From sequence record LC788705.1: a DNA stretch of 64,000 nt; one strand, 5' to 3'. Below the pieces are notes generated by a model, which made no database searches, was not told the DNA's origin, and saw only the letters and a list, made by a program, of their open reading frames with translations. Positions within the stretch are counted from its first letter, which is position 1, and the number at the start of each line of letters is the position of its first letter. Shown here one piece after another: positions 42,129 through 63,919 of this stretch. Position numbers and translations under genes: made by a program. Origin of the DNA: Escherichia coli phage NG_A1.

Positions 42129-42165
42129 TTTGAAATTGTACTTGCTTATTAAGTACAATTTCAAA
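42129..42165. repeat. Perfect 15-bp inverted repeat overlapping promoter -35
   Basis: TTTGAAATTGTACTT-GCTTATT-AAGTACAATTTCAAA; the TTGCTT -35 lies in the loop, TATAAT just downstream. Confidence 0.8.
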
Positions 42166-42171
42166 TATAAT
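42142..42171 (+). promoter_or_regulatory. Early promoter embedded in palindrome
   Basis: TTGCTT-N18-TATAAT. Confidence 0.55.
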
Positions 42172-42200
42172 ATACTCAATAAGTACAAAAGGATAATAAA

Positions 42201-42584
42201 ATGAGTAAAGAAATTGAATTAGAACAAGCCCTTCTGAATTACTCCAATTACTTGCAGGGTGATAAAGAAACTATTACTAAGGAACAGGTATTACTAATAC
42301 TAGACTCTATCACTTCTAAATTCAGGACTTTAGAAGACTACTACTCTGTAGGCAATGGAGATGAGAAGATAGAGTTATGTCTAAATCTCCTAGAAGATAT
42401 GGGCTGGAATGTGGAAGATCAAGTAGGATATTTAGGTATATCTACAGAAATTCTAGAAAATACAGAGCATGAAAATATACTTGAAGTAAAGAGCAGAAGT
42501 GCTATTCGGTATAATACTTATGGTACAGGTATTACAGGAATAAAAGCATTACTTAGTATAGATATAGGATGGTTAGATGAATAA
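42201..42584 (+). CDS. Hypothetical protein
   Basis: 127-aa ORF with RBS AAAGGA. Confidence 0.5.
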   Translation: MSKEIELEQALLNYSNYLQGDKETITKEQVLLILDSITSKFRTLEDYYSVGNGDEKIELCLNLLEDMGWNVEDQVGYLGISTEILENTEHENILEVKSRSAIRYNTYGTGITGIKALLSIDIGWLDE

Positions 42585-43125
42585 AAAGTTACCTAGCCAA
42601 GAAAGATTAAAAGAATTATTAATCTATGATCCAGATACCGGTATATTTACTAATAAGGTAAGTCGTGGTAGGGGAGGAAAAGCAGGTTCACCCGCTGGAT
42701 ACCTAAGAAAAGATGGCTATATAACTATTAAGATAGATAAAATAGATTATTTAGCACATAGACTAGCCTTTCTATACATGACAGGATCAATACCAGATTT
42801 AATAGACCACAAAAATAGGATTAGGTCAGATAATAGGTGGATAAACCTAAGAGAAGCTACAAGCCAGTCTAATAATAGAAACTGTACCGCATCGAGTAAA
42901 TCTGGATATCTAGGTGTACACTGGAACAAACAACTACAGAAATGGCAAGTACAGGTGATTGATAATAAGGGTAAAAATATTTATGGGGGTGTTTTTGACT
43001 ACTTAGACCTAGAAAGTGCGGTCATAAAGGCTAATGAACTGAGAAAAACACTTCATGGTAGCGAAGCAGTTATAGAAGATTTCTATACTAACTATTACCC
43101 ACCAGTAGAGGAACTTAATAAGTGA
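42577..43125 (+). CDS. HNH homing endonuclease with AP2-like domain
   Basis: HNH motif (DLIDHKNRIRSDNRWINLR...QSNNRN), YLGVHW segment; paralog of 18566-19087. Confidence 0.8.
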   Translation: MNKKLPSQERLKELLIYDPDTGIFTNKVSRGRGGKAGSPAGYLRKDGYITIKIDKIDYLAHRLAFLYMTGSIPDLIDHKNRIRSDNRWINLREATSQSNNRNCTASSKSGYLGVHWNKQLQKWQVQVIDNKGKNIYGGVFDYLDLESAVIKANELRKTLHGSEAVIEDFYTNYYPPVEELNK

Positions 43126-43598
43126 GCGTTTTCCACATTTACACAGATGGTGCTTGTAAGTCTAACCCAGGTCCAGGTGCTTGGGGATTTATTGTCTATG
43201 ATGATAACGATGATCGTTTAGGTTCTAAATCTGGATATAGTCCTAAAACTACAAATAATGAGATGGAACTCACGGCTATTGTAGAGGCTCTACGTTGGTC
43301 AGTTAAAAAAGATAATAGACCAATTGTTATCTATACTGATTCTGCTTATTGCAAAAATGGTATGGAAAGTTGGATGTTTTCTTGGCAAAGGAAAGGCTGG
43401 AAGAAAGCAGATGGTGAAGTTCCTCTTAATCTAGAACTTTGGCAGGAAGCATTTAAATTAACACAACAGTATATCAACTTTCATAATACTAATCCTACCT
43501 TTATTAAGGTTAAAGGACATTCTGGTATTAGTGGTAATGAAGCTGTAGACGCCTTATGTAACACAGTTATTACTGAAGCTGAAATGGCTGAGATGTGA
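43122..43598 (+). CDS. rnh: Ribonuclease H
   Basis: RNase HI motifs (IYTDGACKSNPGPGAWG, ELTAIVEAL, IYTDSAY, GHSG...NE.VD). Confidence 0.85.
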   Translation: MSVFHIYTDGACKSNPGPGAWGFIVYDDNDDRLGSKSGYSPKTTNNEMELTAIVEALRWSVKKDNRPIVIYTDSAYCKNGMESWMFSWQRKGWKKADGEVPLNLELWQEAFKLTQQYINFHNTNPTFIKVKGHSGISGNEAVDALCNTVITEAEMAEM

Positions 43599-43619
43599 TA
43601 AATAAATTAAAAAATTTTC

Positions 43620-43648
43620 TTGCTTAAAGCCCTCTAATTTAGTATAAT
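43620..43648 (+). promoter_or_regulatory. Early promoter
   Basis: TTGCTT-N17-TATAAT with AAAAAATTTT UP-like element. Confidence 0.65.
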
Positions 43649-43675
43649 ATTCGTATTGAAAGTGAGGAGGGCTTT

Positions 43676-43954
43676 ATGAGAATTTATAACTCAAATTCAT
43701 TAGGATTTAAACCGTTGAGAAAACGTGCACAATCACCTCGTCAAATAAGAAAGGCTAATATTGGTGAGCCAGAAACACGTCTTCCACCTCCTCCGGAACA
43801 GCGTTTAGTTTATCTGGATGAAGAATTAGCTGAACGCGAAAGAAAAGCTCAAGAAGAGATTGAGCGTAAGAAAATGTGTACTGCTCCAGCGTATAATAAA
43901 GGAGCATATCAATATGTTTCCGATGCAGAACAAGCCAAGATGGTTGGTAGATAA
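43676..43954 (+). CDS. Hypothetical protein
   Basis: 92-aa ORF with GAGGAGG RBS. Confidence 0.5.
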   Translation: MRIYNSNSLGFKPLRKRAQSPRQIRKANIGEPETRLPPPPEQRLVYLDEELAERERKAQEEIERKKMCTAPAYNKGAYQYVSDAEQAKMVGR

Positions 43955-43970
43955 TTTTTAAAAAATTCAT

Positions 43971-43999
43971 TTGCTAAACGCTTCAAATTCTCGTATAAT
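43971..43999 (+). promoter_or_regulatory. Early promoter
   Basis: TTGCTA-N17-TATAAT. Confidence 0.65.
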
Positions 44000-44037
44000 A
44001 TACTTCATAAATTGATAAACAAAAAGGAAAATAAATA

Positions 44038-44553
44038 ATGGCTAAGCAGAAAAACGCAAAAACTCAAGCAGCCCCGGCAGTTAAAACTTTCCCTCAGACT
44101 GAGGCTAACCGCAAAGCTCGTCTGGAACGCCACCTGCGCAAGCACCCTACTGATGCTCAAGCTGCACAGGCACTGAATCGTCCGGCTCCGATTCGTCAAA
44201 AGCCGAAGGCTAAGAATGCCACTCGTTCTGTAGCCCGCCTTGTGACCTATGTACAGGGTTATGGTCACAAATCTGTTCCAGTAGCACTGAGTTTCAATGC
44301 TGGAGCAGAATTGTTCCCTCGTAATGGCATGTCCATGAAAGATTACGAGAAAGCAGTTAACCAGAAACGCAAACCAACGGCAGATGTATTGCGTGATACT
44401 CGTGGACAGTTTGGTTCTGTTAAGCCAAATATCTTTGGCGTAGAGTATAGTAAAGATAATGTTCGTGCTCTGTGTTACGGTGTAGGTATTAAGTTCACGG
44501 GTGATTCTGCTCGTAAATCTGCTAAACCAGCTCATAAGCGTAAAGCGAAGTAA
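44038..44553 (+). CDS. Basic (Lys/Arg-rich) protein, possible nucleic-acid binding
   Basis: 171 aa, strongly basic, Ala-rich; AAAGGAAAA RBS. Confidence 0.5.
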   Translation: MAKQKNAKTQAAPAVKTFPQTEANRKARLERHLRKHPTDAQAAQALNRPAPIRQKPKAKNATRSVARLVTYVQGYGHKSVPVALSFNAGAELFPRNGMSMKDYEKAVNQKRKPTADVLRDTRGQFGSVKPNIFGVEYSKDNVRALCYGVGIKFTGDSARKSAKPAHKRKAK

Positions 44554-45139: not shown

Positions 45140-45841
45140 ATGAAAGTAAAACCATTTGGTATGCTAGATATTGAATCTCTGGGAACTCCAGGAGATTGTG
45201 GTACTACTCATATCGCAATGCCTTCTTTCGCTTTTGTGGCTATGCATGGAATTGATAAAGACCCTGATCTAATATTTGTTACTTTGGATGTACAAGATCA
45301 GCTTAATTCTGGTGCCAAAGTTACAGCATCTACTCTAGCATTCTGGATGGATCAAGCTAAAAATAGCCCGTCTGCTATCCACATTATGGAAGCTATGAAG
45401 GAACGTAATCCAAAACTGATTGCCTTCCAAAATGGTAAACATCATTGCACTAATAAATTAGGCTCAAACTATGCTGCCTTCTCTATGGCTCAAAATATTA
45501 TGGAGTTGGCTCTAGGCGAAAATGCTTTGTATTACGGCAATGGCCCAGAGTTTGATATGACTATCTACTCTGCAAACACGTTCCATGCTGGAACCAATGA
45601 AGAGGTAGTTCCGTGGAAATTCTGGAATTTAGGCAATGTTCGATCTCTTCGTAATCTCTGGATGCAAGCTGGTTATAGTTACAAAGATCTAGAGGCTGAA
45701 GGTATTAGCTGGGCAATAGCTAAAATGGAGAAGATGGACACTATTCGTTATGGGATCTATCCGGCTAAGCACGACCCAGCATTTGATGCCTTAGTTGAGA
45801 GCTATTGTGTTGCAGCTATGATCGAAAAAATGAAAATTTGA
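45140..45841 (+). CDS. Hypothetical protein, possible DEDD-type 3'-5' exonuclease
   Basis: 233 aa; N-terminal LDIESLG (Exo I-like D.E) and C-terminal H..FDA pattern; weak assignment. Confidence 0.4.
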   Translation: MKVKPFGMLDIESLGTPGDCGTTHIAMPSFAFVAMHGIDKDPDLIFVTLDVQDQLNSGAKVTASTLAFWMDQAKNSPSAIHIMEAMKERNPKLIAFQNGKHHCTNKLGSNYAAFSMAQNIMELALGENALYYGNGPEFDMTIYSANTFHAGTNEEVVPWKFWNLGNVRSLRNLWMQAGYSYKDLEAEGISWAIAKMEKMDTIRYGIYPAKHDPAFDALVESYCVAAMIEKMKI

Positions 45842-45842
45842 T

Positions 45843-45871
45843 TTGCTTCCGGCTCCAAAATTCTGTATAAT
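45843..45871 (+). promoter_or_regulatory. Early promoter
   Basis: TTGCTT-N17-TATAAT. Confidence 0.65.
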
Positions 45872-45911
45872 ATATTCATAAATTTGAGAAAACAATAAAA
45901 GGAAAACAAAT

Positions 45912-46147: not shown

Positions 46148-46786
46148 ATGACTACTCGTATTTCTAAAACTCGCGCTCTGGCAACTATCAAATCTCTGGA
46201 AGCTAAAATCCGTAAAGCTACTGAACAACAGCTTCTGATCGCTGTTGGTGAAGGTAAGGATAAAAATAAGGTTGTAGTTGGCGCTGCAATCGAAGTAGAC
46301 GATCTATCTGCTCGTATTAAGGCAGATTTCCAATCTCTCCTAGATATGATGTCCCAGCGTGATCGTATCAAAGCTGCTCTGATTAAGAGCAATGCGGAAA
46401 CAATCGTTGAGATTGGCTCTTGTAAGATGACTGTTGCGGAAGCAATTGAAGCTAAGCGTTCTATGGAGCTTAAAGCTCAGCTGCTGGCTAACATGCGTAA
46501 GCAGTTCCATGCCGCTACGGTTAAGTTTAATACGCAGAAAGCACAGTTTGATGCTAAATATGAGCGTTTGCAGGATAGCATGGCTACTCGCGATAAGAAA
46601 ACTTCCGAAGATGAAGTTAAAATGCAGCTCAACCTGCTGGAACTCAAGAATACTCCATTCTTGATTGATCCGCTGGAACTGGAGAAGCTGATTAAGCAGC
46701 ATGACGAGGAATACCAGGACTTTGCAACAAATGTTGACTTTGTTCTGTCCGAGTCTAACGCCTCTACCTTCATTGAAGTAGAGTAA
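46148..46786 (+). CDS. Hypothetical coiled-coil protein
   Basis: 212-aa ORF with GGAAG RBS. Confidence 0.5.
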   Translation: MTTRISKTRALATIKSLEAKIRKATEQQLLIAVGEGKDKNKVVVGAAIEVDDLSARIKADFQSLLDMMSQRDRIKAALIKSNAETIVEIGSCKMTVAEAIEAKRSMELKAQLLANMRKQFHAATVKFNTQKAQFDAKYERLQDSMATRDKKTSEDEVKMQLNLLELKNTPFLIDPLELEKLIKQHDEEYQDFATNVDFVLSESNASTFIEVE

Positions 46787-47169
46787 TAATTTAAAAGCTA
46801 GTAAATCGGTAGACGAAAGCCCAAGCATCTTACCTCGCAGCAGCGGTTGAAATACGAGGTTAAATAAGACCGCTGACCATACTATAAAGTATAATCTATT
46901 GGAGATTATGTTTATTACACCAGCCTTTTAAGCTGACACGTAAGAACAAAGCGTCGTTGATATTACCGACACAACTTCAAAGATCAACATTTAAGTATGA
47001 AAGCTGAAAAGTTTAAAGAACTCAAACTTCTAAACTTCTAAAGCTAAAAGATGCAAAGTATTCGTTGATGATTCAAACCCTAGATCAAAGGTACATGGCT
47101 CGTAAGATATGGCCTGTGGCGCCTCTAGGCTGTTTATCGGTTTACTAGTTTCACAATTTAAAAATGTAT

Positions 47170-47198
47170 TTGCTAATTTATTAAGTTTTCTGTATAAT
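47170..47198 (+). promoter_or_regulatory. Early promoter
   Basis: TTGCTA-N17-TATAAT. Confidence 0.65.
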
Positions 47199-47228
47199 AT
47201 ATTTTTAAATTGATGAAACGAGGCTATT

Positions 47229-47551: not shown

Positions 47552-48001
47552 ATGAAGACAGCTTTGCTTTTAGTAGCTGCCCTTACCTTCAGCTTTAGTA
47601 GTCAGGCATCGCACGATGCAAAAGAAATAGATTGCATTGCTAAAAATATCTATTTCGAAAGTCGTGGTGAGGGCATAAAGGGAATGACGGCGATTGCACA
47701 TGTTACTAAAAACCGTGTAAACTCCGGTAAATTCCCAGATTCCTACTGTAAAGTAGTATATCAGTCTAACCAGTTCTCTTGGGTATCTAAGAGACCAAAA
47801 GTTGATAAAACTGATGAGGCTTGGCAAACCGCCAAGAATTTAGCTAGAGTGATATACTACGTTGATTTACCACAAGATCCTACACATGGAGCTTTATACT
47901 TCCATAGTGGTAAAGATAAACCATACTGGACAAAGAAGTTTAAGAAAACAACTAAGATTAAGGGACATACATTTTATAAGCCTGTTGTCACTAAAACTTA
48001 A
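47552..48001 (+). CDS. Secreted cell-wall hydrolase, SleB/CwlJ-like
   Basis: Signal peptide (MKTALLLVAALTFSFSSQA), Hydrolase_2-like core (NIYFESRGEG...TKNRV...FHS); AGGAG RBS. Confidence 0.65.
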   Translation: MKTALLLVAALTFSFSSQASHDAKEIDCIAKNIYFESRGEGIKGMTAIAHVTKNRVNSGKFPDSYCKVVYQSNQFSWVSKRPKVDKTDEAWQTAKNLARVIYYVDLPQDPTHGALYFHSGKDKPYWTKKFKKTTKIKGHTFYKPVVTKT

Positions 48002-48009
48002 AAATTTAT

Positions 48010-48038
48010 TTGCTTAAATACTTAAACTTCTGTATAAT
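48010..48038 (+). promoter_or_regulatory. Early promoter
   Basis: TTGCTT-N17-TATAAT. Confidence 0.65.
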
Positions 48039-48069
48039 ACTTTCATAAATTAATGAGGGGAAGCGAAAT

Positions 48070-48240: not shown

Positions 48241-48683
48241 TGGAAGAGGATATTTTAGATGTTTTGCGTAGAGCTTTGCAGGATTCTAAGTTTAATGGTT
48301 CTGATAAAGAAGTCGCTAAAAGCTATCAGACCATAATCGGGGATCTTCAGCGTATTAATAAAGATTTCATCACTTCTGAACAATTTGTGTCTTATCTCAA
48401 AGCTCAACTAAAAAGCATTAACCAGATGAAAGCTAAACTTCATGGTCAAGATCTTGATAGTTATAGCTTGCAGTCCGCTCAGTATGAATACATTCTAAAT
48501 AAGTGGTTGCAGGAGTATCTGCCCTCTCAGTTATCTGATACTGAGATTCGTAAATACTTTGCAGAATTAGTTAAGCTAAACCCTGGAATTACAAAAGGTA
48601 TGCTGATGAAAGCGATCAAGGAAGAATTTCCTGGGCGTTATGATGGTGGTACTGCTGCTCAGATTGCTGGCGAATTTAATTAA
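48240..48683 (+). CDS. Hypothetical protein
   Basis: 147-aa ORF. Confidence 0.5.
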   Translation: MEEDILDVLRRALQDSKFNGSDKEVAKSYQTIIGDLQRINKDFITSEQFVSYLKAQLKSINQMKAKLHGQDLDSYSLQSAQYEYILNKWLQEYLPSQLSDTEIRKYFAELVKLNPGITKGMLMKAIKEEFPGRYDGGTAAQIAGEFN

Positions 48684-48691
48684 AAATTTAT

Positions 48692-48720
48692 TTGCTAAAT
48701 GCTTATAAATTCTGTATAAT
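48692..48720 (+). promoter_or_regulatory. Early promoter heading the tRNA/structured-RNA island
   Basis: TTGCTA-N17-TATAAT; no ORF for about 1 kb downstream. Confidence 0.65.
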
Positions 48721-49732
48721 ATATTCATAAATTAGAGAACAGCGAGCCGATTACGCTGAACTTGTCTTAATGTAAGATGCGTCGAGCACTAAGATTCGTT
48801 GAATAGAGTCGGTGGGTTAGTTGTAAAACTAGTACACAGGGGGCGGCAATCCCGGTTAGTGGCTAGAACGTGTAAAATGAGGCGTCTGAAACCTCTCCCC
48901 TAAACTCTTCTCTAATTTATAAATAGTGGGGTGTGGAAATCACTTATGTAGTAACACTGCCGTCCTAGTATAATTGGTATTATCAAGCCGTAACTGGTGG
49001 AAGATGTAGGTTCGAATCCTACGGTCGGTAAGAACTGGATAACTGATGCTTTTAATGTAAAAGCTTCCGAGGTTAGTTGCGCACTGCCTAAACCACGCGG
49101 TAGTTGGTTCCAGACTAACCAACCAGTCTGCTGAATAGTTTTATTACGATTTAACTATGTCCAGGCTAAAGAAGAACTTTAGAAGGTATTCTAGGATAGT
49201 GAAGTTCTTTCTCCATATCGGAGTAGTTTTTCAAGCTATCCACAAAGTGGGAAATGCTGACATGAGAGATGTCACTAATGGTGCACAATAGCACAGGTAA
49301 TTCGCGATAACTCCTGTTGAGTAGCAGCAAAAGGTGGGAAGTCATGACCCCAAGCCTAACCGAGTCCTCAATATACCGCAGGACATAACTACTAAGTCAC
49401 CCTGACTTAAACTGGAAAATAATAGACGTTACTGTATTTTGTCTTGAAATACTTAATGAGTGAGACTTATGACTCTCCCGGTATCGTCTGTATTTTTAAG
49501 AGTTTTTACGAGAGTTCTTAAAAATACTTAAACGGGGTGTAGTCTAAGGGAGAGGCAGGAGTCTTCTAAATTCCTTTATGCAGGTTCGAATCCCTTGTCA
49601 CGCACCAAATTTGATGGTCAGAGTAAATTAAACCTACTATCTCGGTTGAGCTGTTTTAATGGGTTCGAATCCCAGCGAGGCGTAACTGCCTGGTGTGATA
49701 GAGGCATCATTCCACTAACATTGGAAAAACTA

Positions 49733-49963
49733 ATGAAACGAAAATTAAAAAAGTCTTATATAATTAAGATAAATAAGCTACGAAGTAGGGCAAAAGGATG
49801 GCCACTTCGAATATTAATTGCGGATAACCATACTAGATACCATGCGGAACAACGTCATTACAAACAGTGGGAGTCATACTGCCGCTCAAAAGCAGGTCGT
49901 TTAGATGGATCTTATGAGTTTCTATTTGGTAAAAAGCCTACTAGAGTAGCTTTAGGTAATTAA
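49733..49963 (+). CDS. Hypothetical small basic protein inside tRNA island
   Basis: 76 aa from internal ATG of the 49595 ORF; weak RBS; the upstream part of that ORF overlaps tRNA-like motifs. Confidence 0.3.
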   Translation: MKRKLKKSYIIKINKLRSRAKGWPLRILIADNHTRYHAEQRHYKQWESYCRSKAGRLDGSYEFLFGKKPTRVALGN

Positions 49964-49968
49964 TACTT

Positions 49969-50059
49969 GGAAGAGCAAATCGAATTGGCGACGAAAACCG
50001 CTTGGAAAGTGGCTGACTGGTAAAACGGCTTGAGAGTTCAAATCTCTCCTCTTCCGCCA
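49969..50059 (+). tRNA. tRNA-Ser(GGA)-like, type II, CCA encoded
   Basis: 7-bp acceptor GGAAGAG/CTCTTCC, T-arm GAGAG-TTCAAAT-CTCTC, discriminator G + CCA, anticodon loop TTGGAAA; D-arm atypical (4-nt linker). Confidence 0.5.
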
Positions 50060-50071
50060 AACAATTTATAT

Positions 50072-50166
50072 GGTAGGTCAATCCAACGGCTGGCGCTGGA
50101 CTCCGACTTGAAATCGGTTGATCGTAGTGATACGGTGTAAGGGTTCGATCCCCTTACCTACCTCCA
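50072..50166 (+). tRNA. tRNA-Ser(TGA), type II, CCA encoded
   Basis: Acceptor GGTAGGT/ACCTACC, anticodon stem-loop CCGA-CTTGAAA-TCGG, variable arm CGTA-GTGA-TACG, T-arm AAGGG-TTCGATC-CCCTT. Confidence 0.6.
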
Positions 50167-50634: not shown

Positions 50635-50829
50635 ATGGCTGATTTCTGCAAACAATGCTCCATTGATATGTGGGGCAGAGATACTGGTGATCTTTCTGGG
50701 CTGATTACAGAAGCCGAAGTCAAAGAAGGTTATGGTGCAGTTGTGGTTTGTGAAGGATGCGGAGTCATTCGAGTAGATCATGAGGGTAAGCGCCTTGAAG
50801 AACCTGAGCCAGTTACCCTATTTCCCTAA
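50635..50829 (+). CDS. Small zinc-ribbon protein
   Basis: 64 aa with CxxC...CxxC (CKQC...CEGC); AGGAAATAAAAT RBS. Confidence 0.45.
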   Translation: MADFCKQCSIDMWGRDTGDLSGLITEAEVKEGYGAVVVCEGCGVIRVDHEGKRLEEPEPVTLFP

Positions 50830-50842
50830 AGTAAAGAATTAT

Positions 50843-50918: not shown

Positions 50919-50924
50919 AATACT

Positions 50925-51000: not shown

Positions 51001-51007
51001 AATTAAT

Positions 51008-51590: not shown

Positions 51591-51605
51591 AATTTAAAAA
51601 TTCAT

Positions 51606-51634
51606 TTGCCTTCTCTCTTATTTATTGTTATAAT
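51606..51634 (+). promoter_or_regulatory. Early promoter
   Basis: TTGCCT-N17-TATAAT. Confidence 0.6.
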
Positions 51635-51664
51635 ATTTATATAAATTAATGAGAGGGAAACCAA

Positions 51665-51955
51665 ATGAAACGTTATCTTTCTATTGTATTCCAAACTGGT
51701 GGTCAAAGATATACCTATGAATTTCCATCTTCTTGGAAAATCAAAGAAGGTGATCAAGTAGTAGTGTTAACACCGCGTGAAGGGTATAAAGTAGTAATGG
51801 TTAAACAAGTATTCCCAAAAGATCATGAACCAGCTAAAGGCATTCGCTATAAGATGATTCATGGTGTGGTCCGTCAAGTACCACGAACTGAGGTAGAAGT
51901 AGATAAGACTGGAGAAACTAAATTCCATTATACTTCTTACTTAGATAGTGTGTGA
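51665..51955 (+). CDS. Hypothetical protein
   Basis: 96-aa ORF with GAGAGGGAAA RBS. Confidence 0.5.
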   Translation: MKRYLSIVFQTGGQRYTYEFPSSWKIKEGDQVVVLTPREGYKVVMVKQVFPKDHEPAKGIRYKMIHGVVRQVPRTEVEVDKTGETKFHYTSYLDSV

Positions 51956-53304: not shown

Positions 53305-53379
53305 GTATACAGGTAGATAATTTATGTATAATAAAATTCATCCACATTAGGTTAATTTAAAAAACTTAATGGAGGTAAT

Positions 53380-53727: not shown

Positions 53728-53744
53728 TTTCTGAAATAATTCAT

Positions 53745-53773
53745 TTGCTAAACCTCTCTTTTCTTGTTATAAT
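53745..53773 (+). promoter_or_regulatory. Early promoter
   Basis: TTGCTA-N17-TATAAT. Confidence 0.65.
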
Positions 53774-53803
53774 ATTTATATAAATTGATGAGAGAGGTTT
53801 GAA

Positions 53804-54085
53804 ATGAAAACTCGTCTAGACTGTGCTATTCACGTTGTCGAGCATAGTGTTGTTGGAACCTGTATGTCTTACCATGAAGCAGGTCGTTTAATTAAAGAAC
53901 GTGTGGCAGATGTGTGTGGATTGAAGATTACTGCTGAGGAATCTGATGATCTTTTAGGTCAAGCACTGGAGAAAACCGAAATGTTCCTCTGCGATTCTTG
54001 TTCTTGGTGGTGTGAAGCTCACGAACGTTCTTTCAATGATTATGATGTATGTCGTGATTGTAGTGGGGAGGATGAAGATGAATAA
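53804..54085 (+). CDS. Small Cys-rich zinc-ribbon protein with acidic C-terminus
   Basis: CDSCSWWC...CRDC cluster and C-terminal GEDEDE. Confidence 0.5.
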   Translation: MKTRLDCAIHVVEHSVVGTCMSYHEAGRLIKERVADVCGLKITAEESDDLLGQALEKTEMFLCDSCSWWCEAHERSFNDYDVCRDCSGEDEDE

Positions 54086-55856: not shown

Positions 55857-55868
55857 ATAAAATTTTAG

Positions 55869-55897
55869 TTGCTTAGATGCCCAAACTTTTGTATAAT
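55869..55897 (+). promoter_or_regulatory. Early promoter
   Basis: TTGCTT-N17-TATAAT. Confidence 0.65.
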
Positions 55898-55928
55898 ATG
55901 TTTATAGATTGAGGCAAGAGGATTAAAT

Positions 55929-56627
55929 ATGAGGATTATTTCTAAGTTCGCCGATGTGTATGATTTGCAGAACAGTTTGTTCGACCCAGATCGTGTGTGG
56001 GAACGTAAAACCGAGGAGTTGCTGGTTAAAGTAACCGATGATGCAGAAAAGAACATTGTGCATACTCGCCAGGTATTTCGTGATGGTTCGCTATCTTTCC
56101 GTGGTGATTTCGAATACTTTGTAAACCCACTATTTGTTGCGGGTGAAGTTTACTGGTTACACGAGCTGTACTGCTGGCATCCAACATTTAGCTTCAAAAC
56201 GTTCGACCTCGACACTATGTTCGATAAAATGGAAGAGATGGGATTGCATGCTCGCTCTTACTTAATGGATAAGAGTCGTGGAGATGTTCGTGAAACAATG
56301 CGTGATCTGCTCGCTGAAGCAAAACCTAAAGCAGAACGTATCTTATCCGAACTGCGTGTACCGATTGCATATGTGAAAGGTATTAAAAAGAACGATAACG
56401 ATGATGTTCGTAACTTCGTAATTCAGACTAACATTCGTTTCCATCAGTCCGGTATTCCGTGGCAGGAAATTGAAAGTAACTTATACCGTTTACACCAAGT
56501 TCTCGAACAGTATATCTTCGGTGTACTAGGAACTGGTGAGCCTGATATGATTAAAGTATCAGATAAAGACAGGTTAGCAGCGCATGGATTTGATACAAAA
56601 ACTTCTTTCAGGAATATGGCACGGTAA
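55929..56627 (+). CDS. Hypothetical protein
   Basis: 232-aa ORF with GAGGA RBS. Confidence 0.5.
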   Translation: MRIISKFADVYDLQNSLFDPDRVWERKTEELLVKVTDDAEKNIVHTRQVFRDGSLSFRGDFEYFVNPLFVAGEVYWLHELYCWHPTFSFKTFDLDTMFDKMEEMGLHARSYLMDKSRGDVRETMRDLLAEAKPKAERILSELRVPIAYVKGIKKNDNDDVRNFVIQTNIRFHQSGIPWQEIESNLYRLHQVLEQYIFGVLGTGEPDMIKVSDKDRLAAHGFDTKTSFRNMAR

Positions 56628-57033
56628 GTGGTATATCCTGGGAGCAGGTCTAGCGATAGGCATCGGGTTCGGTGCTTATCACTTAGTAGATAAAGTGGAG
56701 ACTTTAGCAGGAGATCTTGCGGTAGCTACTAAAAAGATTTCTTCTCTAGAGACTTCCCTCAATAAGGTGAAAGGTGAAAGCGAACTTCGTGAGACTAGAA
56801 TGAATCAGTATTTCACAATGAATAATATTTCGCAAGCAGATCTAGACAAAAAGATTAAGCAGTTAGACAAAGCTCTTAGTCGCCAAGATATTATAGCTGC
56901 AAAGCCTGGATTGGTAACATTAATTGCTAAAAAGCAGAGTAAAGAGTTCGAGGAAAGATTAGCATGTTTAACTGGAAACTTGGAATACTGCTCGCAGCCG
57001 CAATCACAATCACAGGCTGTGCAGAAGAAATAA
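56584..57033 (+). CDS. Putative i-spanin (inner-membrane anchored coiled-coil protein)
   Basis: N-terminal TM helix (WYILGAGLAIGIGFGAY) followed by coiled-coil periplasmic domain; gene overlaps a lipoprotein gene. Confidence 0.5.
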   Translation: MDLIQKLLSGIWHGKWYILGAGLAIGIGFGAYHLVDKVETLAGDLAVATKKISSLETSLNKVKGESELRETRMNQYFTMNNISQADLDKKIKQLDKALSRQDIIAAKPGLVTLIAKKQSKEFEERLACLTGNLEYCSQPQSQSQAVQKK

Positions 57034-58784: not shown

Positions 58785-58813
58785 TTGTAATTTTCCTCCA
58801 AAATTAGTATAAT
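58785..58813 (+). promoter_or_regulatory. Promoter of lysis cassette
   Basis: TTGTAA-N17-TATAAT; weaker -35 than the early promoters. Confidence 0.5.
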
Positions 58814-60398: not shown

Positions 60399-60411
60399 GA
60401 TAAAAAAGTAG

Positions 60412-60440
60412 TTGACTTTTAGCCCTAGTTATTATATAAT
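60412..60440 (+). promoter_or_regulatory. Early promoter
   Basis: TTGACT-N17-TATAAT. Confidence 0.65.
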
Positions 60441-60473
60441 ATATACATAAATTAGTTAAGAGAGGTATATATT

Positions 60474-61192: not shown

Positions 61193-61226
61193 CAAAGCCT
61201 GATCTTAGCGGATCAGGCTTTTATTT
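61193..61226 (+). terminator. Rho-independent terminator
   Basis: GCCTGATC...GATCAGGC stem followed by TTTTATTTT. Confidence 0.75.
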
Positions 61227-61229
61227 TAC

Positions 61230-61258
61230 TTGCTTTTTGCTAAAAATTTTGGTATAAT
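61230..61258 (+). promoter_or_regulatory. Early promoter
   Basis: TTGCTT-N17-TATAAT. Confidence 0.65.
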
Positions 61259-61285
61259 ATTTATATAAATTGATCGGAGGATTAA

Positions 61286-61531: not shown

Positions 61532-61533
61532 TT

Positions 61534-62397
61534 ATGAAAAAAGAATTTAATGTACATAAAACTCTAGTAGTGCCGGATGATGCCAACTTGTTTTTCGTTG
61601 GTGATATTCATGGGTGCAACGATTTGCTAGAAGATGCGTTAAAATTAGCTGGGTATAATAGCAAAAAAGATTGCGTAGTATGTGTTGGTGACTTAATTGA
61701 CCGAGGCACACAAAACTTACAAGTTTTAGCCAAATTCCTGTATAATCCACGCTTTATCAGTGTCCGTGGCAATCATGACCAATTTATGATTGTGGGAGAT
61801 TGGGCTAACTGGATGTATAATGGTGGTATGTGGGCCATGAATGAACTAGATGCTGACACCATTAAAAATATTGCCGAAGATATGGCTGAAAAAATGCCAG
61901 TATTCCTAACTGTTAGACATCGTGGTAAGAAGTTTGGTGTTGTTCATGGTGGTATACCTTTTACATACAAAGAATGTGGTAATGAAGTAGAAACCCCAGT
62001 ATGGGATAATCTTATTGCACAAGTAGAAGCAACTAAGGAAGACCCACATGACCATCCGGGATACCATGTTGAACCATATTTATGGGATCGAGATGTAATC
62101 CAAGAAATAGGCTTCTACTTGTCCAAAAATGGTGAGGAACACCCATATTTCCAGCGTTATGCAGGATTTAAAGAAAAATACATGGTAGAAGTGCCTGAAG
62201 TTAAAGGGGTAGATTTCGTGTTTCACGGGCATACTGGGGTCCCTTACCCACTTCTTTATAAAAACCGTGTTTATCTTGATACTGGCGGTGTTTTCAACGG
62301 GCAGTTGACGGTTGCGCAGGTTAATGATGAAACGGGCAAAATCACCACATTTACTACACTCCGGGAAGATAGCTGTGGTGTACAGAGGATTCTTTAA
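61534..62397 (+). CDS. Ser/Thr protein phosphatase (calcineurin-like metallophosphoesterase)
   Basis: GDIHG, GDLIDRG, GNHD motifs. Confidence 0.75.
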   Translation: MKKEFNVHKTLVVPDDANLFFVGDIHGCNDLLEDALKLAGYNSKKDCVVCVGDLIDRGTQNLQVLAKFLYNPRFISVRGNHDQFMIVGDWANWMYNGGMWAMNELDADTIKNIAEDMAEKMPVFLTVRHRGKKFGVVHGGIPFTYKECGNEVETPVWDNLIAQVEATKEDPHDHPGYHVEPYLWDRDVIQEIGFYLSKNGEEHPYFQRYAGFKEKYMVEVPEVKGVDFVFHGHTGVPYPLLYKNRVYLDTGGVFNGQLTVAQVNDETGKITTFTTLREDSCGVQRIL

Positions 62398-62684
62398 TGA
62401 ATGATAGAATGAAAGAAGTACGAGAAGAATTACGAGCAATGCGTATTGATGCCCTTCGTTGGAGGGCATTAGTTAATGCTTTCGTCAAAGGAGATACTGG
62501 GGTAATATATTCTGGGATAGCAGTCAATTTTTGTTTTAATTCTCCTGCTGAAATAGAGATAGAAACAAGGCTTACTACCTACCTTAATGAGGTAGACCTT
62601 AAGGAAGGAGAGACTCCAGAGGAGTTTAAAACTAGAGTATTAACTACCTGGGTTGATAATTTAATACAAAAAAGGAGTAAGTGA
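62397..62684 (+). CDS. Hypothetical protein
   Basis: 95-aa ORF, TAATG-coupled. Confidence 0.45.
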   Translation: MNDRMKEVREELRAMRIDALRWRALVNAFVKGDTGVIYSGIAVNFCFNSPAEIEIETRLTTYLNEVDLKEGETPEEFKTRVLTTWVDNLIQKRSK

Positions 62685-63274
62685 TGAAGGTTAAATTCTG
62701 GTCAGACTTGCACTTAGACCACCCTGGAGCACTACGTTTCCGTCCGTGGTTTAAGAACATGAAAGAGCACGATGAGTATATTCTAGATACTTTGTCCAAG
62801 CATATTGGTAAACGAACAAAACTTATTTTGCTAGGAGATATTGCAGTAGGTCGTGAAGGTCTGGCCAAGTTAAAGTCGGTTATCCACAATGTCCCTAATC
62901 AACTCATTATGGGTAATCATGATGCGGAGCGTCAAGGACTGAGTATTAGGGACTTAGCGGAAGTTTATGACGATATTCAAGCTCTAGGCAAACAGACTGG
63001 AGGTGGCAAAAAGTTTTGGCTATCTCACTGCCCTTTGCATCCCAATGAACTTCGTGGCAAACTAAATATTCACGGACATGTACATACTACTTCTTTACGT
63101 GACCCACGTTATATTAATGTCTCATTTGAAATGAGTAGAACTCCAATTCCACTAGAGGATATTGTGTCTGGTAAGTTTACTAGTTACGATAGAGTGGTTA
63201 ATTGTACTACCGGCGAGGTATTACAAATAGGAGAAGACGTAGCTGCTGTATTGCGTGGCGATATAAATGTCTAA
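62684..63274 (+). CDS. Metallophosphoesterase (second calcineurin-like enzyme)
   Basis: LGDIAVG, GNHD, GHVH motifs; AAGGAG RBS. Confidence 0.7.
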   Translation: MKVKFWSDLHLDHPGALRFRPWFKNMKEHDEYILDTLSKHIGKRTKLILLGDIAVGREGLAKLKSVIHNVPNQLIMGNHDAERQGLSIRDLAEVYDDIQALGKQTGGGKKFWLSHCPLHPNELRGKLNIHGHVHTTSLRDPRYINVSFEMSRTPIPLEDIVSGKFTSYDRVVNCTTGEVLQIGEDVAAVLRGDINV

Positions 63275-63381
63275 GTATATAGCTGAGGTTATTATTAAAC
63301 GAATCATACAGGCGATAGCAATACTTATAATCATTTGTATTGCTGTTGGCACAGGATTAGGCATTTTAATTAAAAGTTTTA

Positions 63382-63410
63382 TTTGCTAAAATGCTTAAGT
63401 TTCTGTATAA
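63382..63410 (+). promoter_or_regulatory. Early promoter
   Basis: TTGCTA-N17-TATAAT. Confidence 0.65.
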
Positions 63411-63441
63411 TTACTGTATAAATTGATGAGAAGGAATCAAA

Positions 63442-63873
63442 ATGAACAAAGTTGATAAAGCTCTAGTTTTTGCAGCAGCAGATAAGTTTGAACAAGTTAA
63501 AGCTACTTTCAGAACCCTGTTTCAGTCCTACGTTCAGGATAAGTCTAATCCTATTTCTGAACGCTTGATGGTTTGGGAGTGTCATGCTTGTAATGCCCTG
63601 CTAATTGCTGATTACCGTAGTGATATAGATAAAGATCTTTGTGAAATCCTTATCCCCGAGGAAGCAGAACGTTATCAGTTAATCTCTTTTCAAGATTTAG
63701 CAGAACACATCATCCCAGATGATCTTTGGGACAAGTATTATGGTGATCCTGAAGACGAAGGAATGGCTCCAGAAGCATGTATTGAGTTAATCTGTAAAGA
63801 TCATCCTGAAATTGCAGAAAAATTTGAAAAAGTTTTTGCTTCTGAGTTCTCAGGTTTCGTTAACGATTGGTAA
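63442..63873 (+). CDS. Hypothetical acidic protein
   Basis: 143-aa ORF with GAAGGAAT RBS. Confidence 0.5.
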   Translation: MNKVDKALVFAAADKFEQVKATFRTLFQSYVQDKSNPISERLMVWECHACNALLIADYRSDIDKDLCEILIPEEAERYQLISFQDLAEHIIPDDLWDKYYGDPEDEGMAPEACIELICKDHPEIAEKFEKVFASEFSGFVNDW

Positions 63874-63890
63874 GTAATTAAAAAATTCAG

Positions 63891-63919
63891 TTGCTTTAAG
63901 CCTTAAAATTCTGTATAAT
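63891..63919 (+). promoter_or_regulatory. Early promoter
   Basis: TTGCTT-N17-TATAAT. Confidence 0.65.

What the first reader, a model, noticed from the sequence alone, without database searches (positions are those of the whole stretch)
42142..63919. At least 14 copies of one stereotyped promoter-leader module
The same about 60-bp module recurs before most early transcription units: an AAAAATTT upstream element, a TTGCTx -35 hexamer, a 17-bp spacer, TATAAT and a CATAAATT(A/G)ATGAGAGG-type leader ending at the start codon. Strong, near-identical promoters are consistent with known T5 early promoters, but the leader is as conserved as the promoter, which suggests a shared post-transcriptional signal. 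In some copies the -35/-10 spacer is complementary to the RBS (e.g. AACCTCTC at 53750 and GAGAGGTT at 53794).
Basis: partly seen in the sequence, partly recalled or inferred. Interest (0 to 1): 0.35.

Follow-up and report, generated by a model that had tools for sequence, protein, structure and literature searches.

The report
Known T5 early promoters; three hairpin-embedded
The repeated 60-70 bp module is the already described and annotated early promoter of T5-like phages; its conserved "leader" is mostly the transcribed part of the promoter, and the one possibly new feature is that three copies lie inside an RNA hairpin that would hide the ribosome-binding site on read-through transcripts.

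Summary
The window is a T5-like phage (Tequintavirus, about 97% identical to sequenced relatives). In detail: 14 promoter modules lie in 42142-63919 and 25 lie in the whole window. TATAAT-N6-ATAAATT occurs 17 times against 0.67 expected by chance.

All 14 in-range copies map onto promoter features of the T5 reference genome, including P-H207, P-D/E33, P16-17, P11 and P-F30. Those features are drawn as -55..+20, so they already include the "leader".

The conserved ATAAATT is +1..+7 of the transcript. It sits a fixed 6 nt after TATAAT in 19 of 24 copies, while the distance to the start codon ranges from 21 to 61 nt. It persists, together with the purine run at +9..+17, in copies with long leaders or in front of RNA genes. 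The Shine-Dalgarno sequence alone therefore does not explain it. The best-supported reading is a transcription-initiation element: published work on PN25, which is present in this window, shows that +3..+20 sets promoter escape. A shared post-transcriptional signal is neither needed nor excluded.

The spacer-RBS complementarity is real but limited to three copies (43620, 51606, 53745). Each forms a -22 to -25 kcal/mol hairpin that pairs the -35/spacer with SD+AUG. These hairpins are conserved in relatives and recur in Vibrio and Klebsiella T5-like phages. They resemble the T4 gene e type of RBS sequestration.

The parts
42132..42200 (+). Promoter module. -35 TTGCTT at 42142, 18-bp spacer, TATAAT, inferred +1 at 42178. 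Lacks the ATAAATT start sequence.
   Evidence: Maps to the T5 promoter feature 46937-47011. Homology to T5 breaks at 42174, just after the -10 hexamer.
43610..43675 (+). Promoter module. -35 at 43620, inferred +1 at 43655, ATG at 43676. Divergent start sequence (ATTGAAAG), SD GAGGAGGG.
   Evidence: Maps to the T5 promoter feature 46337-46411.
43612..43685 (+). Hairpin enclosing the 43620 promoter. The 5' arm is 43612-43635 (upstream A/T stretch, -35 and spacer). The 3' arm is 43666-43685 (SD, AUG and first codons). 19 pairs.
   Evidence: MFE -22.2 kcal/mol, z = -4.0 to -4.3. Own arm pairing -18.8 kcal/mol, with 0 of 40 cross-pairings as good. Kept in 27 related loci.
43961..44037 (+). Promoter module orthologous to T5 P-H207. 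-35 at 43971. CATAAATT lies one base further from the -10 than in most copies. 32-nt leader with its own SD (AAGGAAAA).
45833..45911 (+). Promoter module. -35 at 45843, inferred +1 at 45878, ATAAATTTGAGAAAAC, 34-nt leader.
   Evidence: Maps to the T5 promoter feature 44393-44467.
47160..47228 (+). Promoter module. -35 at 47170, inferred +1 at 47205, TTAAATTGATGAAACGAGG.
   Evidence: Maps to the T5 promoter feature 43067-43141.
48000..48069 (+). Promoter module orthologous to T5 P-D/E33. -35 at 48010, inferred +1 at 48045, ATAAATTAATGAGGGG.
48682..48746 (+). Promoter module orthologous to T5 P16-17. -35 at 48692, inferred +1 at 48727. No ORF follows. It drives the stable-RNA (RNAX) and tRNA region yet keeps ATAAATTAGAGAAC.
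51596..51664 (+). Promoter module orthologous to T5 P11. -35 TTGCCT at 51606, inferred +1 at 51641, ATG at 51665.
51601..51669 (+). Hairpin enclosing the 51606 promoter. The 5' arm is 51601-51619 (TTCATTTGCCTTCTCTCTT). The 3' arm is 51651-51669 (GAGAGGGAAACCAAATGAA), which covers SD and AUG.
   Evidence: MFE -25.2 kcal/mol, z = -5.4 to -7.7. 0 of 40 cross-pairings as good. Kept in 28 of 29 related loci. The sense strand is more stable than the antisense in 21 of 21 variants.
53735..53803 (+). Promoter module. -35 at 53745, inferred +1 at 53780, ATG at 53804.
   Evidence: Maps to the T5 promoter feature 26722-26796.
53740..53810 (+). Hairpin enclosing the 53745 promoter. TTCATTT-GC-TAAACCTCTCTT pairs with GATGAGAGAGGTTTG-AAATGAA.
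   Evidence: MFE -24 kcal/mol, z = -4.2 to -6.9. Two pairs show compensatory changes in relatives, C-G to G-C and U-A to C-G. One relative, L014, has a perfect 24-bp-arm palindrome (-38 kcal/mol).
55859..55928 (+). Promoter module. -35 at 55869, preceded by a terminator-like hairpin. ATAGATTGAGGCAAGAGG.
   Evidence: Maps to the T5 promoter feature 24443-24517, which overlaps an annotated terminator.
60402..60473 (+). Promoter module with a TTGACT -35 at 60412. ATAAATTAGTTAAGAGAGG.
   Evidence: Maps to the T5 promoter feature 19368-19442.
61220..61285 (+). Promoter module. -35 at 61230, directly after the terminator at 61194-61221. ATAAATTGATCGGAGG.
   Evidence: Maps to the T5 promoter feature 18550-18624.
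63373..63441 (+). Promoter module orthologous to T5 P-F30. -35 at 63383. ATAAATTGATGAGAAGG.
63881..63951 (+). Promoter module. -35 at 63891. ATAAATTAATGAGAGAGG, ATG at 63953.
   Evidence: Maps to the T5 promoter feature 16245-16319.
25858..25927 (-). Same module outside the stated range. Its sequence is that of the classical T5 promoter PN25 (TTGCTTTCAGGAAAATTTTTCTGTATAATAGATTCATAAATTTGAGAGAGGAG).
   Evidence: Its -12..+2 is TATAATAGATTCAT, the N25 sequence quoted in PMC7472727. That quote fixes +1 as the A seven bases after the hexamer.
13051..13236 (-). Two tandem modules outside the range. The -35 hexamers are TTGGCA at 13226 and TTGCTA at 13126. Both have TATAATATATACATAAATT.
17652..17717 (-). 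Module outside the range. 18-bp spacer, GTAAGTTAGAGAAG, 55-nt leader.
22170..22238 (-). Module outside the range (ATAAATTGATAAGGAAG).
23617..23685 (-). Module outside the range (ATAAATTAATGAGAGGG). Weaker -35/SD pairing: -14.2 kcal/mol, z = -2.2.
24837..24901 (-). Module outside the range (ATAGTTTGAAAGAAC, 51-nt leader).
29860..29924 (-). Module outside the range (TTGCAG as -35). No ORF within 400 nt.
33100..33166 (-). Module outside the range (ATAAATTTGAGAGGAG).
35917..35981 (+). Module outside the range (GTAAGTTGATAAAC, 61-nt leader).
39517..39586 (+). Module outside the range. Promoter and upstream element are present but the ATAAATT match is poor.

Best explanation
The module is the early-class sigma-70 promoter of T5-like phages (Demerecviridae), fused to a short leader.

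**Anatomy**
- A/T upstream (UP-type) element at -45..-37.
- -35 hexamer TTGCT(T/A).
- 17-bp spacer.
- Perfect -10 hexamer TATAAT.
- A/T-rich discriminator (A-6, T-5, T-3, Y-1).
- Transcription start at the A seven bases after the hexamer.
- Initial transcribed sequence A(+1)TAAATT, followed by a pyrimidine-free stretch at +9..+17.

**What the conserved 'leader' is**
It is mainly the downstream half of the promoter. It is read by RNA polymerase during open-complex formation, initial transcription and promoter escape. This is shown for one member, PN25, in the literature and is inferred for the rest. It probably also marks the early class for phage-directed shut-off through the discriminator, as proposed in the literature.

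In the roughly two thirds of copies where the start codon lies at +22..+28, the purine stretch doubles as the ribosome-binding site (GAGAGG or GAGGAG). This explains why promoter-proximal genes use this unusual Shine-Dalgarno variant.

**The three hairpin copies (43620, 51606, 53745)**
In these copies the -35/spacer DNA has additionally been selected to be complementary to the SD and AUG. A transcript that starts at an upstream promoter and reads through would fold into a -22 to -25 kcal/mol hairpin that hides the ribosome-binding site. A transcript that starts at the module's own +1 lacks the 5' arm and is open. This last step is inferred from structure prediction, conservation and the T4 precedent. 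It has not been shown.
For: **Identity**
- The window is 95-97.5% identical to Tequintavirus genomes.
- All 14 copies map onto 'promoter' features of T5 NC_005859.1, five of them named. Most of these features are 75 bp long and span -55..+20.
- Copy 25917(-) carries the N25 sequence. The N25 -12..+2 quoted in PMC7472727 fixes +1.

**Enrichment and position-specific conservation**
-.
- The poorly conserved spacer and +8 argue for position-wise selection rather than recent duplication.

**Anchoring on the start site**
- ATAAATT sits 6 nt after TATAAT in 19 of 24 copies, while leader length ranges from 21 to 61 nt. Two copies have no ORF.
- Long-leader and no-ORF copies keep both ATAAATT and the purine run.
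- T5 P13b and P16-17 carry the motif in front of stable RNAs.

**Purifying selection among orthologues**
- Diversity at +1..+7 is 0-0.02 and in the leader 0.025-0.043, against 0.14-0.25 at third codon positions.

**Family-wide spread**
- The same module occurs in Klebsiella (Sugarlandvirus) and Vibrio T5-like phages.

**Literature**
- Replacing N25 +3..+20 lowers full-length RNA about 10-fold and raises abortive synthesis. [quoted passage not shown]
- The first 10 bp of the transcribed sequence modulate escape over about 3 orders of magnitude (PMC5961368).
- All early T5 promoters share an ATATT discriminator, and gpT5.026 weakens polymerase binding to -5/+2 (PMC7472727).

**Promoter-linked SD variant**
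- 7 of the 14 GAGAGG occurrences in the window fall in +6..+23 of the modules, which make up 0.34% of the sequence. GGAGG and AGGAG are mostly elsewhere.

**Hairpins**
- Searches give z = -4 to -7.7 and 0 of 40 cross-pairings as good.
- They are conserved in 26-29 relatives each, with G-U-tolerant changes and two compensatory pairs.
- The sense RNA is more stable than the antisense in 54 of 57 variants.
- Spacer diversity is 0.2-0.7 of third-position diversity, against 1.35 at the non-hairpin control P-H207.
- The same design occurs in front of different genes in Vibrio phage Achelous and Klebsiella phage IME260, z = -5.7 and -5.8.
- No predicted terminator lies between the upstream promoters and these modules.
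- T4 precedent: PMC3014915.
Against: - No transcript data for this phage were available. The start sites, the early timing and the read-through are inferred from T5.
- The effect of the start sequence on escape is demonstrated only for PN25. The consensus contains T-G at +7/+8 or +8/+9, close to the pause-prone positions reported in PMC5961368 (maximum at +5/+6). The motif could therefore tune rather than maximise escape.
- A 5'-terminal RNA function of AUAAAUU cannot be separated from a DNA-level function by sequence alone.
- Covariation in the hairpins is sparse: 2 of 23 pairs. The relatives are closely related.
- Some variants carry mismatches in the stems.
- The Sugarlandvirus orthologue of the 53745 locus has the promoter but no hairpin.
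- 21 of 24 copies have no such hairpin, although many also lack an upstream terminator.
Confidence: 0.8

Rival explanations
1. The conserved leader is an RNA-level signal shared by early mRNAs. Candidates are an A/U-rich 5' translational enhancer with a special SD, a stability determinant, or the target of a phage-directed nuclease or repressor that shuts off early proteins.
For: - The leader (+8 to the base before ATG) is as constrained among orthologues as the -10 hexamer.
- GAGAGG is strongly tied to promoter-proximal genes.
- Leaders are almost free of C (N25 has no C until +30).
- T4 has a precedent for SD-directed inactivation of early mRNAs: RegB cuts GGAG (PMC3014915).
Against: - The motif is anchored to the -10 hexamer, not to the start codon.
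- It is kept before stable-RNA and tRNA units and before leaders of 32-61 nt that carry a separate SD.
- A purely transcriptional effect of +3..+20 has been shown in vitro for N25.
- No T5 factor acting on such an RNA signal turned up in the library searches.
Confidence: 0.2
2. The repetition reflects mobile or recombining regulatory cassettes, like the T4-type PeSLs. The modules would be kept alike by recombination or gene conversion and would serve as junctions for shuffling small early genes.
For: - The modules flank many small ORFs of unknown function.
- In Epseptimavirus phages STG2 and SmurfNell, the 53745-type module is conserved in front of a protein only 34-42% identical to the window's.
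- One breakpoint between the window and T5 lies exactly at the 42142 promoter.
- PeSL precedent: PMC2839356.
Against: - Conservation is position-specific. The spacer and +8 are free to vary, which does not fit homogenised repeats.
- Most window-versus-T5 breakpoints coincide with HNH homing-endonuclease genes or the tRNA block, not with modules.
- The hairpins lack a U-tract, so they are not PeSL-type terminators.
Confidence: 0.15
3. The three promoter-spanning hairpins are not translational masks. They would instead be processing or stability elements of read-through RNA (for example RNase III sites that separate tRNA/mRNA precursors), or DNA cruciforms that tune the promoter with supercoiling.
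For: - The stems total about 17-23 pairs with small internal loops, a size typical of RNase III substrates.
- 51606 lies directly after tRNA-Thr.
- Relative L014 has a perfect palindrome that could extrude as a cruciform.
- N25 output is very sensitive to supercoiling.
Against: - The 3' arm always covers SD plus AUG, which a processing site need not do.
- G-U pairs make the sense RNA more stable than the antisense in 54 of 57 variants, which argues against a DNA-level structure.
- Processing and masking are not mutually exclusive.
Confidence: 0.2
4. The pattern is a chance by-product of A/T-rich sequence.
For: The window is 61% A+T. A generic sigma-70 consensus scan finds no excess of promoter-like sites (63 found against 60.9 expected).
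Against: The specific patterns exceed every shuffle: 23 against 3.5 and 17 against 0.67. Positions not used for selection are conserved. The orthologous sites are annotated promoters in T5.
Confidence: 0.01

Closest known systems
Bacteriophage T5 early promoters (PN25, PH207, PD/E33 and others; Bujard laboratory; annotated in NC_005859.1)
   Same: - Same sequence family and orthologous positions.
- UP element, TTGCT -35, 17-bp spacer, TATAAT, ATATT-type discriminator, and the downstream region up to +20 counted as part of the promoter.
- PN25 itself is present in the window.
   Different: - Nothing essential differs. This phage is a relative of T5 (about 90-97% identity).
- It has a shorter tRNA region and a few inserted or missing HNH genes.
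N25 initial transcribed sequence / 'downstream sequence region' (Kammerer et al. 1986; Hsu laboratory, PMC12464699)
   Same: The conserved +1..+20 block of the modules is the same element. Its replacement in N25 cuts productive transcription about 10-fold.
   Different: It has been tested for one promoter only. That the shared ATAAATT-purine consensus is the active feature across the class is an inference.
T4 genes e, soc, 49 and I-TevI: RBS sequestered in a hairpin on long transcripts, with a proximal promoter inside the hairpin (PMC3014915)
   Same: - SD and AUG are paired with a 5' arm that lies upstream of the proximal promoter's start site.
- Transcripts from that promoter lack the arm.
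   Different: - In T4 the internal promoter is a late (or middle) promoter, so the device delays expression.
- Here the internal promoter belongs to the same early sigma-70 class as the upstream ones. The effect would be to uncouple translation from read-through rather than to switch timing.
- The 5' arm is the -35/spacer of the promoter itself.
- Not tested experimentally.
PeSL cassettes of T4-type phages (promoter-early stem-loop; PMC2839356, PMC4122927)
   Same: Repeated strong sigma-70 promoters, associated with stem-loops, among small non-essential genes.
   Different: - PeSL stem-loops are terminators placed beside the promoter.
- Here the stem encloses the promoter, has no U-tract, and covers the RBS.
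- Breakpoints are mostly not at the modules.

Membership tests
T5 early-class sigma-70 promoters | -35 TTGCTx, 17 +/- 1 bp spacer, -10 TATAAT | tested here: met
   25 copies in the window. 22 of the 25 have a 17-bp spacer and all have a perfect TATAAT.
T5 early-class sigma-70 promoters | A/T-rich upstream (UP) element around -43 | tested here: met
   Information content is 0.6-1.3 bit per position at -45..-37, consensus AAAAtTTtA. An UP element is marked for N25 in PMC12464699.
T5 early-class sigma-70 promoters | ATATT-type discriminator specific to the early class (PMC7472727) | tested here: met
   A at -6 in 23 of 24 copies, T at -5 in 19 of 24, T at -3 in 19 of 24, C or T at -1 in 23 of 24.
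T5 early-class sigma-70 promoters | Orthology to mapped or annotated T5 promoters | tested here: met
   All 14 in-range copies fall inside promoter features of NC_005859.1, including P-H207, P-D/E33, P16-17, P11 and P-F30.
T5 early-class sigma-70 promoters | Early temporal activity and use of the predicted start site in infected cells | not testable with these tools
   No transcript data are available. +1 is taken from the published N25 numbering.
Escape-controlling initial transcribed sequence (N25 type) | Conserved sequence at +1..+20, positioned relative to the start site and independent of coding context | tested here: met
Escape-controlling initial transcribed sequence (N25 type) | Changing it alters the abortive/productive ratio | not testable with these tools
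   Published for N25 only (PMC12464699).
T4 gene e-type RBS sequestration with an internal promoter | SD and/or AUG base-paired in a stable helix | tested here: met
   Predicted for 43620, 51606 and 53745: -22 to -25 kcal/mol, z = -4 to -7.7, with 12-17 pairs between the upstream region and the SD/AUG window.
T4 gene e-type RBS sequestration with an internal promoter | The 5' arm lies upstream of the proximal promoter's start site, so its own transcripts lack it | tested here: met
   The 5' arms end at -20 or further upstream.
T4 gene e-type RBS sequestration with an internal promoter | Longer transcripts from upstream promoters cross the site | tested here: inconclusive
   Upstream promoters are present and no + strand terminator is predicted directly upstream, but there are no RNA data.
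T4 gene e-type RBS sequestration with an internal promoter | The internal promoter belongs to a later temporal class than the upstream ones | tested here: not met
   The internal promoters have the same early-class sequence as their upstream neighbours.
T4 gene e-type RBS sequestration with an internal promoter | Structure supported by covariation | tested here: inconclusive
   - 2 of 23 pairs are compensatory, several changes are G-U compatible, and a few break pairs.
- Three non-homologous arm pairs each match only their own partner.
- The design recurs in two other genera.
PeSL cassettes | The stem-loop acts as a terminator (G+C stem followed by a U run) | tested here: not met
   No U-tract follows the 3' arms, the loops are about 30 nt, and the terminator scan does not call them.
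PeSL cassettes | Cassettes lie at insertion, deletion or replacement boundaries | tested here: not met
   One of about 12 window-versus-T5 breakpoints lies at a module (42174). The others are at HNH genes or the tRNA block. Only one genome pair was compared.

The most novel reading that the evidence does not exclude
In T5-like phages a subset of early promoters is built into an RNA hairpin whose 5' arm is the promoter's own -35/spacer and whose 3' arm is the SD plus AUG. The downstream small gene would then be translated only from transcripts started at that promoter, and it would be silent, or be cleaved, on read-through RNA. The design recurs in front of unrelated genes in Tequintavirus, Epseptimavirus, Sugarlandvirus (Klebsiella) and Vibrio T5-like phages. 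I found no description of it for this family in the searchable library.
Probability: 0.5. Interest if true: 0.45.

Novelty: already known. Interest (0 to 1): 0.25.

Why it matters
**The main finding** re-discovers a textbook element from sequence alone. The T5 early promoters are among the strongest E. coli promoters, they underlie the widely used T5/lac expression vectors, and they are the standard model for abortive initiation.

**What this analysis adds**
- It is quantitative and family-wide. The transcribed +1..+17 part (ATAAATT followed by a purine run) is conserved as a class feature across 25 copies.
- It is conserved across Demerecviridae infecting Escherichia, Salmonella, Klebsiella and Vibrio.
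- This holds independently of whether a gene follows. It supports the view that the initial transcribed sequence belongs to the promoter definition.
- It also gives a natural set of variants for escape studies.

**The hairpin-embedded promoters**, if functional, would extend the T4 'promoter inside an RBS-masking hairpin' logic to another phage family and to same-class promoters. That would be a compact way to insulate the translation of individual small genes in a densely transcribed, terminator-poor early region.

Tried and rejected
- **Gentz & Bujard 1985.** It could not be read (PMC214212 is not held). The statement that this paper already noted class-specific homology around +7 therefore rests on my memory only.
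- **Literature searches for a T5 hairpin or RBS-masking description.** They found nothing. That is weak evidence of absence, because the library lacks most subscription papers, including the T5 genome paper.
- **Spacer-RBS complementarity as a general property of the module.** Rejected. The mean own-pairing is only slightly better than cross-pairing (-7.5 against -6.6 kcal/mol, permutation p about 0.03), and the difference is driven by three copies.
- **Hairpins as intrinsic terminators.** Rejected, because there is no U-tract and the scan does not call them.
- **A 5'-proximal AUG in (A/G)ATGAGAG as a mini-ORF start.** Considered and dropped. It has no SD, its frame and length are not conserved, and many copies read TTGAGAG instead.
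- **PeSL-like shuffling.** One window-versus-T5 comparison gave little support.
- **Rfam.** It finds only tRNAs in the window.
- **PHROGs.** The three hairpin-controlled proteins (phrog_4593, phrog_4760, phrog_2855) have no known function, so gene identity gave no clue to why they would need masking.

Full report
**What the window is.** An 8-kb piece of the region is 95-97.5% identical to many Tequintavirus (T5-like) genomes such as phage NBSal005, phiLLS and T5_ev219. One small protein is 100% identical to that of Salmonella phage vB_SalS-SIA3lw. The region holds eight tRNA genes. Rfam finds only tRNAs.

**Check of the observation.**
- TTGCT-N18-TATAAT with up to one mismatch occurs 23 times in the window against 3.5 expected. 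No shuffle reaches that number.
- TATAAT-N6-ATAAATT occurs 17 times against 0.67 expected.
- A scan with relaxed spacing, plus inspection, gives 14 modules on the + strand inside 42142-63919 and 11 more elsewhere. Nine of those 11 are on the - strand of the left half.
- The stated start and end are exactly the first -35 base of the first copy and the last -10 base of the last copy.
- Of the 14, 12 have at least 6 of 7 matches to ATAAATT at the fixed position. About five have the full (A/G)ATGAGAGG wording. Copies 42142 and 43620 have other start sequences.

**Per-position conservation.** I aligned 24 copies on the -10 hexamer and scored them against the window's base composition. The following positions played no part in choosing the copies, yet they are conserved:
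- -45..-37 (AAAAtTTtA, up to 1.3 bit);
- -6, -5, -3 and -1 (A, T, T, Y);
- +1..+7 (ATAAATT, 0.7-1.1 bit each);
- +9..+17, where pyrimidines are almost absent.

Most spacer positions and +8 carry little information. The pattern is therefore position-wise constraint, not recently copied repeats.

**Identity with known promoters.**
- The T5 reference record NC_005859.1 annotates 'promoter' features, and every one of the 14 copies falls into one when the window is aligned to T5.
- Five are named: P-H207 (43971), P-D/E33 (48010), P16-17 (48692), P11 (51606) and P-F30 (63383).
- Most features are 75 bp long. Relative to the start site they span -55 to +20, so the annotators already treated the first 20 transcribed bases as part of the promoter.
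- The copy at 25917 on the - strand reads TTGCTTTCAGGAAAATTTTTCTGTATAATAGATTCATAAATTTGAGAGAGGAG. Its TATAATAGATTCAT is the sequence given for -12..+2 of T5 N25 in PMC7472727. That fixes +1 as the A seven bases after the hexamer, so 'CATAAATT' is -1 to +7.

**Is the conserved leader explained by the Shine-Dalgarno sequence?** No.
- ATAAATT lies six bases after TATAAT in 19 of 24 copies, and one or two bases further in the rest. The distance from +1 to the start codon is 21-27 nt in 16 copies and 32-61 nt in six. Two copies (48692, 29914) are followed by no ORF.
- The eight long-leader or non-coding copies keep ATAAATT (mean 6.0 of 7, against 6.4 for the short-leader copies and a background of 3.46). 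They also keep the purine run at +9..+17 (7.5 of 9, against 7.9 and a background of 4.54).
- In T5, P16-17 drives the stable RNA 'RNAX' and P13b drives RNA2H and tRNAs, and both carry the motif.
- Among orthologues from 27-29 related genomes, nucleotide diversity is 0-0.02 at +1..+7 and 0.025-0.043 in the rest of the leader. Third codon positions of the gene that follows show 0.14-0.25.
- The element is also present in Sugarlandvirus (Klebsiella) and in Vibrio T5-like phages.

**What it most likely does.** A block that is anchored on the start site, present before RNA genes and under strong purifying selection fits a transcription-initiation element. The literature shows this directly for one member.
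- Replacing +3..+20 of N25 ('antiDSR', Kammerer et al. 1986 as cited) lowers full-length RNA about 10-fold and expands abortive products. The native sequence speeds escape. N25 has no C until +30 (PMC12464699).
- In general, the first 10 transcribed base pairs change escape over about three orders of magnitude (PMC5961368).
- The A/T-rich discriminator 'ATATT' has been pointed out as the mark that separates early from late T5 promoters. It is a possible handle for the phage protein gpT5.026, which weakens polymerase binding to -5/+2 (PMC7472727).
- The purine run doubles as the ribosome-binding site where the start codon is close. 7 of the 14 GAGAGG strings in the whole window lie within +6..+23 of the modules, which make up 0.34% of the sequence. 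The common GGAGG and AGGAG strings are mostly elsewhere.

I therefore read 'GAGAGG' as a Shine-Dalgarno variant shaped by having to sit inside the initial transcribed region. A further RNA-level role (translation enhancement, stability, a target for shut-off) cannot be excluded from sequence. I found no evidence for one.

**The spacer-RBS complementarity.** I computed duplex energies between each copy's -40..-13 segment and its own SD/AUG segment. I compared them with all cross-combinations, which keeps the family's composition.
- Three copies stand out. 43620 gives -18.8, 51606 gives -18.8 and 53745 gives -19.9 kcal/mol, each better than all 40 cross-pairings. The remaining copies are at background.
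- Folding the read-through RNA gives hairpins of -22.2, -25.2 and -24.5 kcal/mol, with z-scores of -4.0 to -7.7. Three ordinary copies give z between -0.8 and +1.9.
- In each, the 5' arm is the A/T stretch, the -35 hexamer and the first half of the spacer. The loop holds the -10 hexamer, the start site and ATAAATT. The 3' arm covers the SD and the AUG.
- Weaker versions exist at 23675, 33156 and 13126.

**Evidence that the hairpins are selected.**
- All three are kept in 26-29 related loci. Most changes are G-U compatible and a few break pairs.
- At the 53745 locus there are three arm haplotypes: AAACCTCTCT/AGAGAGGTTT, AAAACCCTCTC/GAGAGGGCTTT and AAAGAGCCTCT/AGAGGGCTTT. RNAalifold counts two pairs with changes on both sides, C-G to G-C and U-A to C-G.
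- One relative (L014) has replaced the rest of its spacer by the exact complement of its leader. This gives a perfect 24-bp-arm palindrome that still has TTGCTA-17-TATAAT.
- The sense RNA folds better than the antisense in 54 of 57 distinct variants, as expected if G-U pairs matter. These variants are related, so this is not 57 independent tests.
- Spacer diversity is 0.22-0.73 of third-position diversity at the three loci, against 1.35 at the neighbouring non-hairpin promoter P-H207. That is a single control.
- The same design, with other arm sequences and other downstream genes, occurs in Vibrio phage Achelous (z = -5.7) and Klebsiella phage IME260 (z = -5.8).
- Against this, the Sugarlandvirus orthologue of the 53745 locus has the promoter but no hairpin.

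**How the hairpins would work.** The 5' arm lies upstream of the module's own start, so only RNA started further upstream can form the hairpin. Upstream promoters exist, and no + strand terminator is predicted directly before these three modules. Such RNA would have its SD and AUG paired, while RNA from the internal promoter would be open. This is the logic established for T4 genes e, soc, 49 and I-TevI (PMC3014915).

The difference is that in T4 the internal promoter is of a later class. Here it is of the same early class, so the effect would be insulation from read-through rather than delay. Processing by RNase III is a live alternative or addition. The three proteins (92-96 aa; phrog_4593, phrog_4760, phrog_2855) have no known function.

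**Other rivals.** A PeSL-like role as recombination cassettes (PMC2839356) gets little support.
- Conservation is position-specific.
- Of about 12 breakpoints between this window and T5, only one (42174) is at a module. The others coincide with HNH homing-endonuclease genes or the tRNA block.
- A conserved module in front of a very divergent gene in STG2 and SmurfNell is the one observation in its favour.

**Verdict.**
- The identification as T5 early promoters is right.
- The conserved leader is real and is not just an SD. However, it is the known downstream part of these promoters, and a transcriptional role is the better-supported reading.
- The module is already known and annotated.
- The promoter-spanning, RBS-masking hairpins at three copies are the only part that may be new for this phage family. 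They would be a new member of a known kind of device.
- Limits: there are no transcript data; the key 1985-86 papers and the T5 genome paper could not be read here; and the covariation rests on few independent changes.

Noticed in passing
window 13051-13236 (- strand): Two modules lie in tandem about 100 bp apart, both with TATAATATATACATAAATT. The upstream one (-35 TTGGCA at 13226) would make a short transcript, ATAAATTTGAGAGAGAAAGTTTCGGATT...TCCGAAGC, with a small hairpin and no obvious ORF before the second promoter. The second has GAGGAG at +10..+15, but the nearest ATG is at +41. This could be a small RNA or an unusual start codon.
   Followed up: partly
locus L014 (IMGVR_UViG_3300045988_054024), about positions 535-605, orthologue of window 53735-53810: The spacer of this promoter has been replaced by the exact complement of its own leader (AAACCTCTCTCATCAATT / AATTGATGAGAGAGGTTT). 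This gives a perfect 24-bp-arm palindrome (-38 kcal/mol) that still keeps TTGCTA-17-TATAAT. It looks like a template-switch 'palindrome-perfecting' mutation.
   Followed up: partly
window 42175-43127: This stretch is an insertion relative to T5 that begins right after the -10 hexamer of the 42142 promoter. It holds a 127-aa ORF and a gene that related phage records annotate as an HNH endonuclease. The latter resembles the T5 hegE region at 68% identity. RNase H follows at 43128.
   Followed up: partly
window 49601-50166, 50811-51075, 54370-54732, 56618-56631: Compared with T5, the window lacks about 10 kb of the tRNA/stable-RNA block (8 tRNAs against 24-25 in T5). It also lacks the HNH genes hegD, hegE and hegF. 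Most breakpoints sit at homing-endonuclease genes.
   Followed up: partly
window 48959-49030 (+): Rfam scores a tRNA-like element (35.5 bits) inside the region homologous to the T5 stable RNA 'RNAX'. ARAGORN does not call it. Conversely, ARAGORN calls tRNA-Arg at 49532-49607, which Rfam's gathering threshold misses.
   Followed up: no
window 58785-58813 and about 53300-53345 (+): Two further promoter-like sites lack the ATAAATT start sequence. One is TTGTAA-17-TATAAT, in the window stretch aligned to T5 upstream of the holin/endolysin genes. The other is ATGTATAAT after the terminator-like hairpin at 53270-53300. By position in the window-versus-T5 alignment they would correspond to the T5 promoter feature 20998-21071 and to P10a. 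They may belong to another promoter class.
   Followed up: no
loci L167 (Vibrio phage Achelous contig), 4008-6123: Four nearly identical modules lie within 2 kb in front of small ORFs: TTGCTTAACTAA(C/T)(T/C)AAA..TATAATATAT(G/A)(T/C)ATAAATTGAAACGGAGA. This is a denser, more uniform array than in the window and a better candidate for cassette-mediated gene shuffling.
   Followed up: no
window, all module leaders: The leaders are almost free of C: 0-2 C between +1 and the start codon in the short-leader copies. This matches the published remark that N25 RNA has no C until +30. The consensus also places T-G at +7/+8 or +8/+9, close to the positions (+5/+6) reported to be pause-prone during initial transcription.
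   Followed up: partly
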